32,000 nucleotides of DNA, taken from Methanococcoides methylutens (GTDB taxonomy: Archaea > Halobacteriota > Methanosarcinia > Methanosarcinales > Methanosarcinaceae). The notes under the pieces are model-generated. The model did not search any database, was not told the origin of the DNA, and saw only the letters and a list, made by a program, of their open reading frames with translations. Positions 18,009-19,825 of the stretch are shown piece after piece; position 1 is the stretch's first letter; each line of letters starts with the position of its first letter. The position numbers were made by a program, and so were the translations under genes. The stretch is from positions 99,374 to 131,373 of the forward strand of contig NZ_JRHO01000002.1 in the NCBI RefSeq assembly GCF_000765475.1, written 5' to 3'.

Positions 18009-19160
18009 TTATTTTTCCTCTACTTTCACAAAACGTTTCCCCATAAGGTTTAACTTAAATTTTCTGATGGTTTCAGGAGGTATAATTTCACCATTTGGAC
18101 TCTTAAAATATAAAGCATTTAAAGGGCATTGGACGATGCAAGCACCGCATTGAACACATTGATCTGCCCTAGGCATTGTTGCAATATGTCGCTTTCTGTC
18201 TACCTCAAAGCAATTCCTCGGACAGATCTCCTCACAAAAACCAACACCTTTACACTTATCCTTATCAAGGATAACTTTTAGCAATCTATCATCCTGAAAC
18301 CCACCTTTGTAGACTGGTGTGCTACCCATTAGATCAATGCTTAGGATGAGAACAACAATGAATGAAATAAAACCCCAGAATAAAATAAATCTCCACGAGA
18401 AATTTCCAGATAACACTACATAAATAGCAAGAGCAACCATTAGAATGGTCCATATAATCAGTTGAAGGCTTCCACGCCCAAAATCAAAGAAAATAAATCC
18501 AATTTTTTTCCCCTCAGTTTTTAAAAAACGGCTATAAACCGGAAATGATATAAAAATTAAGAATGATATGATCCAAACCAGGAAAACAACAGGAAGAATA
18601 GCCTCACTCCGGAAAATAATCATGATGATAGCCAAGACAGCAGAGATTGGAAATGCCCAGGCAACAGCCATCTCAATACGTTGTTTCCAGGGAAACTCGA
18701 CTTCCCTCATTTTCGGTGTTTTGATGAAATGGTCTTTTAGAAAAAGAGGGAGATCTTTTGCATATACTGGCCCCCATATCACTTCCCATCCTGTTTTTTC
18801 CTTTATGATCTTAGCTTCGACACCTGTGGCCGCAAGTTGGGGCAATATTACATTTCTGTGACCTACTACTTCTTCAATTCCGCTGGTTTTCAGAACTGAA
18901 ATTACGTCATGATTTGTGAAACGGCCACCTGTAGCTGAACACCAGACATTTATTCCTTTGCTATTAGCAACAAGAAGATAAACATCGATTCCTTTTATCG
19001 CCCTTTTTACTCCTTCTACAGTTAGATGATAATTGCAGGTCAGAATAACAGGTGAATTGATATCAGGATCCCCTATCTTAATCAAACCTGTTTGACAGGG
19101 GAAAGGGAAAACTCTCAATAGAGTTTCAATAATGTATATAATGAGGTAATGTAGATTCAT
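18009..19160 (-). CDS. HgcA-HgcB-like fusion: corrinoid-binding CdhD/HgcA-type domain + transmembrane domain + 2x[4Fe-4S] ferredoxin
   Basis: 383 aa: SPVILTCNYHLTVEGVKRAIKGIDVYLLVANSKGINVWCSATGGRFTNHDVISVLKTSGIEEVVGHRNVILPQLAATGVEAKIIKEKTGWEVIWGPVYAKDLPLFL...TPKMREVEF, about 4 TM segments, DLMGSTPVYKGG, then DKCKGVGFCEEICPRNC...CVQCGACIVQCP. Confidence 0.8.
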   Translation of the reverse strand: MNLHYLIIYIIETLLRVFPFPCQTGLIKIGDPDINSPVILTCNYHLTVEGVKRAIKGIDVYLLVANSKGINVWCSATGGRFTNHDVISVLKTSGIEEVVGHRNVILPQLAATGVEAKIIKEKTGWEVIWGPVYAKDLPLFLKDHFIKTPKMREVEFPWKQRIEMAVAWAFPISAVLAIIMIIFRSEAILPVVFLVWIISFLIFISFPVYSRFLKTEGKKIGFIFFDFGRGSLQLIIWTILMVALAIYVVLSGNFSWRFILFWGFISFIVVLILSIDLMGSTPVYKGGFQDDRLLKVILDKDKCKGVGFCEEICPRNCFEVDRKRHIATMPRADQCVQCGACIVQCPLNALYFKSPNGEIIPPETIRKFKLNLMGKRFVKVEEK

Positions 19161-19825
19161 TTCATTATCTCTTCAGGTTTCTTTGCCACCAATTCAATAA
19201 AATTCCCTGTTTTATTATATCTGATCGATTCTACTTGCAATCCTGCTTCTTTCACTTTTTCCGGCAGGTTTTTGATGGCATTTGTACTGGTTTGTGCAAT
19301 AAGGTAAGTAATTATTACAAAAGGAAATCTTATGAACCAATTGAGCATCCTCTTGAAGCTATTTTTAGGGATCACCTCATCGGCAATGAGGAAGAGACCA
19401 CCCACCTTCAATATCCTTTTTACCTCTTTCAACGTATAGAATAATTCATCATCAGTTAATTCAGAAAAACAAAGTCCACTCATTACAGCATCGTAACTTT
19501 CTGCATTTTCGCTCCCAAGCTCTGCAACACCCATTTCAAACAGCTCGATGTTTTGCATAAGACTTGCTTTACTTGCCCGCATTTGTGCAATATCTAACAT
19601 TTGGGAATTGACATCGATTCCTTTTACTTTTGCACCTTTTTCAGCAGCTTTTAGTGTCAGTGCTCCGCTCCCACAACCAATATCAAGCACAATCTGCCCT
19701 TTTTGTATATAGGCTGTTAAATTATCATAAGCCTTATCTAATCTTCCAACAGTGAGAATACGAATGCACCAGTCATACCTATCAGGAGCTGATTCAAGTA
19801 TCTTCATTAATATATATGTACTCAT
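19157..19825 (-). CDS. class I SAM-dependent methyltransferase, translationally coupled to the HgcAB-like fusion
   Basis: QIVLDIGCGSGALTLKAAEKGAKVKGIDVNSQML...YDAVMSGLCFSELTDDEL...VKRILKVGGLFLIADE; TGA stop at 19157-19159 overlaps ATG start of next gene (ATGA). Confidence 0.88.
   Translation of the reverse strand: MSTYILMKILESAPDRYDWCIRILTVGRLDKAYDNLTAYIQKGQIVLDIGCGSGALTLKAAEKGAKVKGIDVNSQMLDIAQMRASKASLMQNIELFEMGVAELGSENAESYDAVMSGLCFSELTDDELFYTLKEVKRILKVGGLFLIADEVIPKNSFKRMLNWFIRFPFVIITYLIAQTSTNAIKNLPEKVKEAGLQVESIRYNKTGNFIELVAKKPEEIMK

What the first reader, a model, noticed from the sequence alone, without database searches (positions are those of the whole stretch)
18009..19825. Translationally coupled SAM methyltransferase + HgcAB-like fusion: possible two-component corrinoid methylation module
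Seen: the methyltransferase stop TGA (19157-19159) overlaps the fusion gene's ATG (19158-19160), and a TATA-like GTATATATTTAC element (about 19866-19878) sits upstream of the pair. Inference: strict coupling suggests stoichiometric co-expression. The soluble SAM methyltransferase could supply a methyl group to the membrane corrinoid protein, or methylate its product or substrate. I know of no characterized system with this pairing.
Basis: partly seen in the sequence, partly recalled or inferred. Interest (0 to 1): 0.75.

Follow-up and report, generated by a model that had tools for sequence, protein, structure and literature searches.

The report
CpaM methyltransferase with HgcAB-like corrinoid protein
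A SAM-type methyltransferase gene overlaps the start of a membrane vitamin-B12/iron-sulfur protein gene related to the mercury-methylating enzyme, in Methanococcoides methylutens; the pair is real, conserved across bacteria and archaea, often fused into one protein, and already catalogued (CpaM plus HgcAB-like fusion), but nobody has shown what it does.

Summary
On the minus strand, a 222-aa class I SAM methyltransferase (19825-19157) ends in a TGA that overlaps the ATG of a 383-aa protein (19160-18009). That protein has a corrinoid-binding domain, four membrane helices and a 2x[4Fe-4S] ferredoxin domain.

The window is Methanococcoides methylutens. Its "fused hgcAB" was tested by others and made no methylmercury.

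NCBIfam already names both proteins, above trusted cut-offs: "HgcAB-like fusion protein" and "corrinoid protein-associated methyltransferase CpaM". The pairing is therefore catalogued. I found no paper describing or testing it.

- **Neighbourhood:** 59 of 61 evaluable HgcAB-like loci have CpaM directly upstream or fused. None of 14 evaluable true hgcA loci do.
- **Overlap:** the 4-nt stop/start overlap recurs in 27 of 48 related loci.
- **Fusions:** more than 118 distinct ~590-aa natural proteins join CpaM to the HgcAB-like protein.
- **Co-divergence:** r = 0.86.

Best explanation, inferred at about 0.45: CpaM binds SAM and loads its methyl group onto ferredoxin-reduced Co(I) of the Cys-ligated corrinoid, which passes it to an unknown acceptor that is not Hg. 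This is a catalogued but uncharacterised module of moderate interest.

The parts
19865..19876 (-). TATA-like element GTATATATTTAC, 40-51 nt upstream of the cpaM start codon. A candidate archaeal promoter for the two-gene unit.
   Evidence: One exact match. The core TATATAT is common in this window, 18 matches against 8.5 expected, so promoter function is inferred and not shown.
19157..19825 (-). cpaM: a 222-aa class I (Rossmann) SAM-dependent methyltransferase of the UbiE/Coq5-like branch. The coordinates include the stop codon TGA at 19159-19157.
   Evidence: ORF. NCBIfam NF043040 CpaM at 276 bits against a cut-off of 180. Pfam Methyltransf_25/11 and Ubie_methyltran. The N-terminus MSTYILMKILES is conserved in homologues. 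Family invariants were mapped.
19664..19684 (-). SAM-binding motif I of CpaM (D48-I-G-C-G-S-G54).
   Evidence: D48, G50, C51, G52 and G54 are at least 97% conserved in 286 family sequences. D71, the acidic ribose-binding residue of motif II, is 100% conserved.
19157..19160 (-). ATGA stop/start overlap between cpaM and the fusion gene (translational coupling signal).
   Evidence: Read directly from the sequence. The same 4-nt overlap occurs in 27 of 48 related loci and in Kosmotoga pacifica and Methanohalophilus.
18009..19160 (-). HgcAB-like fusion gene, 383 aa: corrinoid-binding domain, four transmembrane helices and a 2x[4Fe-4S] ferredoxin domain in one chain.
   Evidence: NCBIfam NF043039 at 464 bits against a cut-off of 285. 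100% identical to a Methanococcoides methylutens protein (P0001). AF2 model: pLDDT 92, pTM 0.89.
18726..19139 (-). [quoted passage not shown]
   Evidence: Pfam CdhD, aa 19-135. PDB profile hit 4djd_C at 80 bits. Foldseek rmsd 1.5-1.7 A over about 126 residues to CFeSP structures.
18939..18941 (-). Codon of Cys74 in the cap helix (G69-I-N71-V-W73-C74). This is the presumed lower axial thiolate ligand of cobalt.
   Evidence: G69, N71, W73 and C74 are invariant in 38 diverse family members. The equivalent Cys93 of HgcA is essential and ligates Co (PMC7305189; PMC11588087).
18339..18689 (-). Membrane domain (aa 158-274) with four predicted transmembrane helices.
   Evidence: AF2 helices 158-183, 185-213, 227-251 and 256-274. 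Hydropathy peaks.
18102..18278 (-). HgcB-like ferredoxin domain (aa 295-353) with eight Cys: C303, C309, C313, C317, C335, C338, C341, C345.
   Evidence: Pfam Fer4 families. HgcB_ferredoxin partial hit at 46.6 bits. Seven Cys are invariant. Positions. There is no Cys after C345.
17975..17979 (-). T5 run 30 nt after the fusion's stop codon. A candidate archaeal oligo-T terminator closing the two-gene unit.
   Evidence: Read from the sequence. Function is inferred from general knowledge of archaeal termination. It is followed by a 177-nt gap before the next gene.

Best explanation
The two genes encode one self-contained, three-module methyl-transfer machine related to HgcAB.

- **Reduction.** The C-terminal ferredoxin domain of the membrane protein reduces the protein-bound, Cys74-ligated corrinoid to Co(I).
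- **Loading.** CpaM binds S-adenosylmethionine and presents its methyl group to Co(I). It acts as the 'methyl-loading' methyltransferase, the role MeTr plays for CFeSP and the SAM-binding reactivation module plays for MetH. The result is methyl-Co(III).
- **Delivery.** The methyl group then passes to a still unknown acceptor at or near the membrane domain. That acceptor is probably not Hg(II).
- **Expression.** The ATGA overlap and the frequent outright fusion keep the two parts at 1:1.

**Shown:** the partnership (conservation, fusion, co-divergence), the domain make-up, intact SAM-binding motifs and an intact cap-helix Cys.

**Inferred:** the direction of methyl flow, the physical complex and the acceptor.
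For: **Linkage.**
- CpaM sits directly upstream on the same strand, or in the same ORF, in 59 of 61 evaluable HgcAB-like loci.
- It is absent from all 14 evaluable loci of bona fide unfused hgcA, which score 440-465 bits on the HgcA model.

**Rosetta stone.**
- At least 118 distinct (90% identity) ~590-aa proteins carry CpaM N-terminal to the HgcAB-like protein. Those scanned pass both NCBIfam cut-offs.
- Seven such fusions were seen as single ORFs in raw contigs.
- AF2 of one fusion gives pTM 0.83, meaning a confident compact multi-domain arrangement.

**Inheritance.**
- The two proteins co-diverge: r = 0.86 over 40 loci, Mantel 0 of 2000 permutations.
- No third conserved neighbour exists, so the pair is sufficient in itself.

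**Chemistry.**
- Purified HgcAB takes its methyl group from SAM through Co(I) to methyl-Co(III)-thiolate (PMC11588087). SAM-to-corrinoid transfer is therefore established for the sister family.
- CpaM keeps motif I and the motif II aspartate. It has no conserved Cys apart from motif I C51, which argues against direct metal or metalloid binding of the ArsM type.
- In fusions the methyltransferase sits immediately before the corrinoid domain.
Against: - No experiment on any member exists, and I had no model coordinates. I could not check that the SAM pocket faces the upper face of the corrinoid.
- True HgcAB reacts with SAM without any accessory methyltransferase, so the paralogue might too, leaving CpaM another job.
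- CpaM's nearest structural relatives methylate lipophilic small molecules: Coq5/UbiE and phospholipid N-methyltransferase. No class I Rossmann methyltransferase is known to methylate a protein-bound corrinoid.
- Two bona fide fusion loci (L013, L038) lack an adjacent CpaM.
Confidence: 0.45

Rival explanations
1. Sequential or dual methylation. The HgcAB-like protein is loaded directly by SAM, as HgcAB is. CpaM acts separately on the same pathway, methylating the substrate before the corrinoid step or the product after it. One example is a second methyl group on a metal(loid) or a lipophilic membrane compound.
For: - HgcAB needs no accessory methyltransferase to react with SAM (PMC11588087).
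- CpaM belongs to the UbiE/Coq5-like branch. It is structurally closest to small-molecule and lipid methyltransferases: 4obw Coq5, 8ys9 PmtA, RebM/AtmM.
- A conserved hydrophobic helix (aa ~156-178) could contact the membrane.
- Strict linkage and fusion fit consecutive enzymes of one pathway equally well.
Against: - No conserved Cys or other obvious metal-binding residues in CpaM.
- No other pathway genes are conserved nearby.
- The fixed order of methyltransferase, short linker, corrinoid domain, together with a confident compact model, suggests a direct domain-domain partnership.
Confidence: 0.25
2. CpaM is a maturation or regulatory factor. It methylates a residue of the fusion protein or its cofactor, for example a corrinoid or lower-ligand modification, rather than taking part in each catalytic turnover.
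For: - Tight 1:1 linkage and fusion.
- The name given by NCBI only claims 'association'.
- The archaeal methyl-transfer enzyme MCR carries methylated residues (general knowledge).
Against: - A maturation enzyme rarely needs to be stoichiometric or covalently fused to its single target in hundreds of lineages.
- No precedent is known for this family.
Confidence: 0.08
3. It is simply a mercury-methylation system (HgcAB) with an extra methyltransferase.
For: - Homology to HgcA and HgcB. HgcA_corrinoid gives 170 bits and HgcB_ferredoxin 46.6 bits.
- The cap-helix Cys is conserved.
- Podar et al. note that lack of MeHg in culture does not prove the protein cannot catalyse the reaction (PMC4646819).
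Against: [quoted passage not shown] P. furiosus likewise made none.
- The protein scores below the HgcA cut-off (170 against 275).
- It lacks HgcB Cys73 and the C-terminal Cys pair needed for activity.
- It lacks the N-terminal CU/CC extension.
- The cap-helix motif is NVWCSATG, not one of the accepted N(V/I)WC..GK forms.
Confidence: 0.05
4. The two genes are unrelated neighbours, and the 4-nt overlap is a common operon feature with no functional meaning.
For: ATGA overlaps are common. Another occurs at 31118-31121 in this window.
Against: - 59 of 61 loci are linked across both domains of life.
- 0 of 14 true hgcA loci are linked.
- Hundreds of gene fusions exist.
- The two proteins co-diverge at r = 0.86.
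Confidence: 0.02

Closest known systems
HgcAB mercury-methylation complex (HgcA corrinoid membrane protein plus HgcB ferredoxin; Parks 2013, Zheng 2024)
   Same: - A CFeSP-type corrinoid-binding domain with a cap helix and strictly conserved Cys.
- A C-terminal membrane domain.
- A 2x[4Fe-4S] ferredoxin partner.
- In HgcAB, SAM is the proven source of the methyl group through Co(I) and methyl-Co(III)-thiolate.
   Different: - A and B are fused in one chain.
- Four predicted transmembrane helices, not five.
- No HgcB Cys73, no C-terminal Cys pair and no N-terminal CU/CC extension.
- The cap-helix motif is NVWCSATG.
- It scores below the HgcA trusted cut-off.
- There is an obligatory CpaM partner, which true hgcA loci lack (0 of 14).
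- The host makes no MeHg.
NCBIfam NF043039 'HgcAB-like fusion protein' and NF043040 'corrinoid protein-associated methyltransferase CpaM'
   Same: Both window proteins score well above the curated cut-offs, 464 against 285 and 276 against 180. The curators' name already encodes the gene-neighbour association.
   Different: Nothing differs in sequence terms, so this locus is a member. The families are annotation-level only. CpaM is a 'hypothetical equivalog', and I found no paper using either name.
CFeSP with MeTr (AcsC/AcsD + AcsE) of the Wood-Ljungdahl pathway
   Same: - The corrinoid domain is homologous (rmsd ~1.6 A over 126 residues).
- The logic matches: a separate methyltransferase docks on the corrinoid domain to load Co(I), and an Fe-S cluster handles reductive activation.
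   Different: - MeTr is a TIM-barrel enzyme using methyl-tetrahydrofolate. CpaM is a Rossmann-fold SAM enzyme.
- CFeSP is soluble, base-off/His-off, and has no Cys ligand.
- Its acceptor is the Ni of acetyl-CoA synthase.
Reactivation module of cobalamin-dependent methionine synthase (MetH), and TsrM / class B radical-SAM methylases
   Same: SAM methylates reduced cob(I)alamin after electron input from a flavodoxin or Fe-S donor. This is the chemistry proposed here.
   Different: The folds are unrelated: MetH has a C-shaped AdoMet domain, and TsrM has a radical-SAM barrel with a Rossmann B12 domain. Neither has a membrane domain or a Cys-on corrinoid.
UbiE/MenG/Coq5 C-methyltransferases
   Same: - Best Pfam sub-family hit (Ubie_methyltran, E = 1.5e-15).
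- Best structural match (Coq5 4obw).
- A shared N-terminal YD motif region.
   Different: - Far below the UbiE/MenG family cut-off (65 against 158 bits).
- Strictly linked to a corrinoid protein rather than to quinone biosynthesis genes.

Membership tests
NCBIfam NF043039 HgcAB-like fusion protein | Whole-protein score above the curated cut-off (285 bits). | tested here: met
   464.4 bits, covering profile positions 2-350 of 350.
NCBIfam NF043039 HgcAB-like fusion protein | One chain containing a CFeSP-type corrinoid domain, a membrane domain and a 2x[4Fe-4S] ferredoxin domain. | tested here: met
   Pfam CdhD at aa 19-135 and Fer4 families at aa 295-353. Four transmembrane helices in the AF2 model with pLDDT 92. 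Eight Cys in the ferredoxin domain.
NCBIfam NF043039 HgcAB-like fusion protein | Conserved cap-helix Cys (the Co ligand). | tested here: met
   C74 is invariant, together with G69, N71 and W73, in 38 diverse members. Actual Co-S ligation was not testable.
NCBIfam NF043040 CpaM | Whole-protein score above the curated cut-off (180 bits). | tested here: met
   276.1 bits, covering profile positions 1-216 of 216.
NCBIfam NF043040 CpaM | Encoded next to a corrinoid (HgcAB-like) protein. | tested here: met
   4-nt overlap in the window. 59 of 61 related loci. Kosmotoga, Methanohalophilus and other genomes.
NCBIfam NF043040 CpaM | Functional class I SAM-binding site. | tested here: met
   Motif I D48-x-G-C-G-x-G54 and D71 are present and at least 97% conserved. 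The fold matches SAM-bound Coq5. SAM binding itself was not testable.
NCBIfam NF043040 CpaM | Methyl acceptor and catalytic activity. | not testable with these tools
   No experimental data were found.
Bona fide HgcA/HgcB mercury methylation | HgcA equivalog score above the cut-off (275 bits). | tested here: not met
   170.2 bits. True HgcA from loci L062, L064, L071 and L082 scores 440-465 bits.
Bona fide HgcA/HgcB mercury methylation | Cap-helix motif N(V/I)WC(A/S)(A/G/S)GK. | tested here: not met
   The window has NVWCSATGG. Accepted motifs are listed in PMC10087281.
Bona fide HgcA/HgcB mercury methylation | HgcB Cys73 equivalent and C-terminal Cys pair. | tested here: not met
   There is no Cys after C345 in the 38-residue tail. 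The requirement is described in PMC7305189.
Bona fide HgcA/HgcB mercury methylation | N-terminal CU/CC extension of HgcA. | tested here: not met
   The sequence upstream of the ATG is the cpaM coding region in another frame. The feature is described in 10.1101/2022.07.06.499078.
Bona fide HgcA/HgcB mercury methylation | The organism produces methylmercury. | not testable with these tools
   Published culture assays for M. methylutens were negative (PMC5893877).
ArsM-type arsenite methyltransferase | Conserved As(III)-binding cysteines, and a family score above the cut-off. | tested here: not met
   The only conserved Cys is motif I C51. The arsenite methyltransferase model gives 50 bits against a cut-off of 263.
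UbiE/MenG quinone C-methyltransferase | Family score above the cut-off (TIGR01934, 158 bits). | tested here: not met
   65.1 bits.
CFeSP large subunit (AcsC/CdhE) | Full-length match, including the N-terminal Fe-S and TIM-barrel domains. | tested here: not met
   93 bits against a cut-off of 306. Only the C-terminal corrinoid domain aligns.

The most novel reading that the evidence does not exclude
CpaM is the first class I (Rossmann-fold) SAM methyltransferase whose methyl acceptor is the Co(I) of a protein-bound, Cys-ligated corrinoid. The CpaM/HgcAB-like pair or fusion would then be a complete, self-reducing SAM -> Co -> X membrane methylase. Its natural substrate X (a metal, metalloid or membrane compound other than Hg) would reveal the ancestral, non-mercury function of the HgcA superfamily.
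Probability: 0.35. Interest if true: 0.8.

Novelty: already known. Interest (0 to 1): 0.5.

Why it matters
The native function of the HgcA family is a long-standing puzzle. Mercury methylation brings no known benefit, and the fused paralogue, including the one in this species, makes no methylmercury. An obligate and often covalently fused SAM-methyltransferase partner gives that puzzle a concrete handle.

It points to SAM as the methyl source, matching the 2024 result for HgcAB. It defines a minimal two-gene or one-gene system that can be expressed and assayed. It separates the fused family from true hgcAB in metagenomic surveys, where cpaM adjacency could serve as a marker to exclude non-methylators.

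If CpaM does load the corrinoid, that would be a new way of coupling SAM to B12 chemistry. As a gene-neighbour observation, it is already recorded in NCBI's annotation models.

Tried and rejected
- **Genome scan used poorly.** My single genome-contig scan was run with one protein instead of an alignment. I recovered with a metagenome scan using alignment A1.
- **Long N-terminal extensions.** Some database HgcAB-like proteins carry 140-190-aa N-terminal extensions (P0304, P0318, P0333). They have no recognisable domain. They look like over-long gene calls in high-GC genomes, where the frame stays open across cpaM (L026, L033). I did not treat them as a third architecture.
- **Third conserved partner.** None was found in the flanks. 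TetR-like genes occur in 5 loci, LolA-like in 4 and ArsR-like in 3.
- **Literature.** No paper names CpaM or the 'HgcAB-like' partner methyltransferase. The published version of the Haft and Gwadz paper is not held. Its preprint does not mention the pair.
- **Interface geometry.** I could not read it from the AF2 model of a triple fusion, because coordinates are not exposed. Only pTM and pLDDT could be used.
- **Coevolution analysis.** A direct-coupling analysis was considered and rejected. About 170 paired sequences are too few.
- **Promoter scan.** The sigma-70 scan was not used, because the host is an archaeon.
- **Rejected readings.** ArsM-like metalloid methylation by CpaM is rejected: no conserved Cys. 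A UbiE/MenG orthologue is rejected: far below cut-off. A chance neighbour is rejected.
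Full report
**1. What is in the sequence**

Two ORFs lie head to tail on the minus strand.
- A 222-aa protein is encoded at 19825..19157.
- A 383-aa protein is encoded at 19160..18009.
- The text ...GAAATGAATC... puts the downstream ATG at 19160-19158 and the upstream TGA at 19159-19157.
- GTATATATTTAC occurs once, at 19865-19876, 40-51 nt before the first ATG.
- A T5 run at 17979-17975 follows the second stop by 30 nt.
- The neighbours are unrelated. An amino-acid permease lies upstream (20275-21576) and a glycogen-synthase-like glycosyltransferase lies downstream (16029-17831). 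The rest of the window is ordinary methanogen housekeeping.

**2. Identity of the two proteins**

The 383-aa protein is 100% identical to a Methanococcoides methylutens protein.
- Pfam finds the CdhD corrinoid domain (aa 19-135) and 4Fe-4S ferredoxin motifs (aa 295-353).
- NCBIfam assigns it to NF043039 'HgcAB-like fusion protein' at 464 bits (cut-off 285).
- The true HgcA model reaches only 170 bits (cut-off 275).
- An AlphaFold2 model built on 38 diverse relatives is confident, with pLDDT 92 and pTM 0.89. It shows an alpha/beta corrinoid domain with a short cap helix (72-77), four long membrane helices (158-274) and a ferredoxin fold.
- The corrinoid domain superposes on CFeSP large-subunit structures at 1.5-1.7 A. 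The best overall match is the published integrative HgcAB model.

The 222-aa protein is a class I SAM methyltransferase (Methyltransf_25/11, Ubie_methyltran).
- NCBIfam assigns it to NF043040 'corrinoid protein-associated methyltransferase CpaM' at 276 bits (cut-off 180).
- UbiE/MenG, ArsM and other named methyltransferase families fall far below their cut-offs.

**3. What the literature says**

[quoted passage not shown] Pyrococcus furiosus also produced none (PMC4646819).
- Reviews and protocols advise treating fused sequences as non-methylators (PMC10087281).
- Phylogenies place them as a separate clade of the HgcA family (10.1101/2022.11.21.517362).
- None of these papers mentions the adjacent methyltransferase in the passages searched. 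No paper in the library uses the names CpaM or 'corrinoid protein-associated methyltransferase'.
- Purified HgcAB was shown in 2024 to take its methyl group from SAM, not methyl-tetrahydrofolate. The route is Co(I) to a methyl-Co(III)-thiolate (PMC11588087).

**4.

I gathered 82 related loci: 2 from genomes and 80 from metagenomes, using an alignment of diverse family members. I searched their six-frame ORFs with HMMs for CpaM and for the fusion protein.
- Sixty-six loci encode the fused type. In five of them the contig ends too close to the gene to judge.
- Of the 61 evaluable loci, 52 have CpaM as a separate gene immediately upstream on the same strand. Seven have it in the same ORF.
- Two (L013 and L038, both high-GC) have none. 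Both pass the HgcAB-like model.
- Sixteen loci encode unfused proteins. The four I checked are bona fide HgcA at 440-465 bits.
- None of the 14 unfused loci with enough upstream sequence has CpaM.
- Where both gene ends could be called, 27 of 48 related loci (28 of 49 with the window's own pair) have the 4-nt ATGA/GTGA/TTGA overlap. Three have a 1-nt overlap, and most others lie within about 11 nt.
- The same arrangement is seen in the complete genome of Kosmotoga pacifica, in Methanohalophilus, and in a MAG labelled [Eubacterium] cellulosolvens.
- Source names of homologues span many taxa:
  - Archaea: Methanofastidiosia, Hydrothermarchaeota and Aenigmarchaeota.
  - Bacteria: KSB1, Aminicenantes, Atribacterota, Acidobacteriota, Poribacteria, Aerophobetes, Zixibacteria and Bipolaricaulia.
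- Pairwise distances of the two proteins across 40 loci correlate at r = 0.86, with 0 of 2000 Mantel permutations reaching that value.
- No third gene family is conserved around the pair.

**5. Natural fusions**

A search of cluster representatives turned up ~580-640-aa proteins whose C-terminal 340 residues match the window's fusion protein.
- Their N-terminal ~215 residues pass the CpaM model and the rest passes the HgcAB-like model.
- A further search with one of them returned at least 118 distinct full-length (575-635 aa) clusters at 90% identity. They come from Desulfobacterales, Calditrichaeota, Ignavibacteria-like and other bacteria.
- AF2 of one fusion (P0313), using those 118 sequences, gives pLDDT 85.6 and pTM 0.83. 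Low confidence is confined to the 8-residue linker, the cofactor-dependent cap helix and one loop.
- A pTM this high for four domains implies a defined mutual arrangement. I could not inspect coordinates.
- This is classic Rosetta-stone evidence that the two window proteins work together physically.

**6. How it most likely works**

Shown:
- an obligate partnership;
- an intact SAM site in CpaM (motif I, and D71 100% conserved);
- an invariant cap-helix Cys and seven invariant Fe-S cysteines in the partner.

Established for the sister enzyme: SAM methylates Co(I) of the Cys-ligated corrinoid after reduction by the ferredoxin.

Inferred: in the fused family, SAM binding is delegated to CpaM.
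- CpaM docks on the corrinoid domain as MeTr docks on CFeSP, and loads methyl onto Co(I).
- The methyl group then leaves to an unknown acceptor.

Two observations favour loading over an independent small-molecule reaction.
- CpaM has no conserved cysteine other than the one in motif I, so it lacks ArsM-type metalloid-binding chemistry.
- In every fusion the methyltransferase sits directly before the corrinoid domain.

Two observations count against it.
- HgcAB needs no helper to react with SAM.
- CpaM's closest folds are Coq5, RebM/AtmM and a phospholipid N-methyltransferase, all small-molecule or lipid enzymes. A conserved hydrophobic helix (aa ~156-178) does not reach a transmembrane hydropathy threshold. 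It could contact either the membrane or the partner.

I put the loading model at about 0.45 and a separate second methylation step at about 0.25.

**7. Why it is not a mercury methylase**

Besides the negative culture assays, the protein fails several tests.
- It fails the HgcA model.
- Its motif is NVWCSATG instead of the accepted cap-helix motifs.
- It has no Cys after the second Fe-S motif. In HgcB, Cys73 is essential, and activity falls by 95% when both C-terminal Cys94 and Cys95 are lost.
- It has no N-terminal CU/CC extension.
- The model has four transmembrane helices, against five in HgcA.

**8. Verdict**

- The direction of methyl flow remains untested.
- The promoter and terminator assignments are consensus-level guesses.
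- The pairing is not new: both families are named in NCBIfam, and the fused gene of this species is in the mercury literature.
- The module is biochemically uncharacterised.
- What I add here: the quantified linkage (59 of 61 against 0 of 14), the conserved overlap, the abundance of triple fusions, and the connection to the 2024 SAM result.
- Interest is moderate. The locus is a ready-made, minimal system for asking what the HgcA family does when it is not methylating mercury.

Noticed in passing
window 21589-22954 (-), next to 20275-21576 (-): An amino-acid permease appears split into two ORFs that overlap by 11 nt: the N-terminal half at 22265-22954 and the C-terminal half at 21589-22275. 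It sits beside an intact 433-aa paralogue. This is probably a frameshifted tandem duplicate or pseudogene.
   Followed up: no
window 30345-31870 (-): Two further class I methyltransferase genes (258 and 250 aa) also share a 4-nt stop/start overlap, at 31118-31121. ATGA coupling by itself is therefore common in this genome.
   Followed up: partly
window 18210-18254 (-), aa 303-317 of the fusion protein: The first Fe-S motif of the ferredoxin domain is atypical: C303-x5-C309-x3-C313-P-x2-C317. The second Cys of CxxCxxCxxxCP is replaced by Val306, and an extra Cys317 follows the CP. The closest subclade shares this, while more distant members keep the canonical motif.
   Followed up: partly
P0304, P0318, P0333; loci L026 598-2427 and L033 630-3005: Many database 'HgcAB-like' proteins carry 140-190-aa N-terminal extensions with no recognisable domain. 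In high-GC loci the fusion's reading frame stays open across the upstream cpaM gene, so these look like over-long gene calls rather than a new architecture.
   Followed up: partly
L083 1445-3849 (Kosmotoga pacifica CP011232): Two additional methyltransferase genes (262 and 221 aa) and a DUF3795 gene lie just upstream of cpaM. This may be a local expansion of methyltransferases around the module.
   Followed up: no
L013 (2127-3287) and L038 (803-1984): These two high-GC metagenomic loci encode bona fide HgcAB-like fusion proteins with no cpaM upstream. L013 has a divergently oriented esterase-like ORF there instead. Whether cpaM lies elsewhere in those genomes is unknown.
   Followed up: partly
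P0001 (the window's own protein, 18009-19160): Some public sources still name this protein 'copper oxidase', and JGI names relatives 'NAD-dependent dihydropyrimidine dehydrogenase PreA subunit'. Both are misannotations driven by the ferredoxin domain.
   Followed up: no
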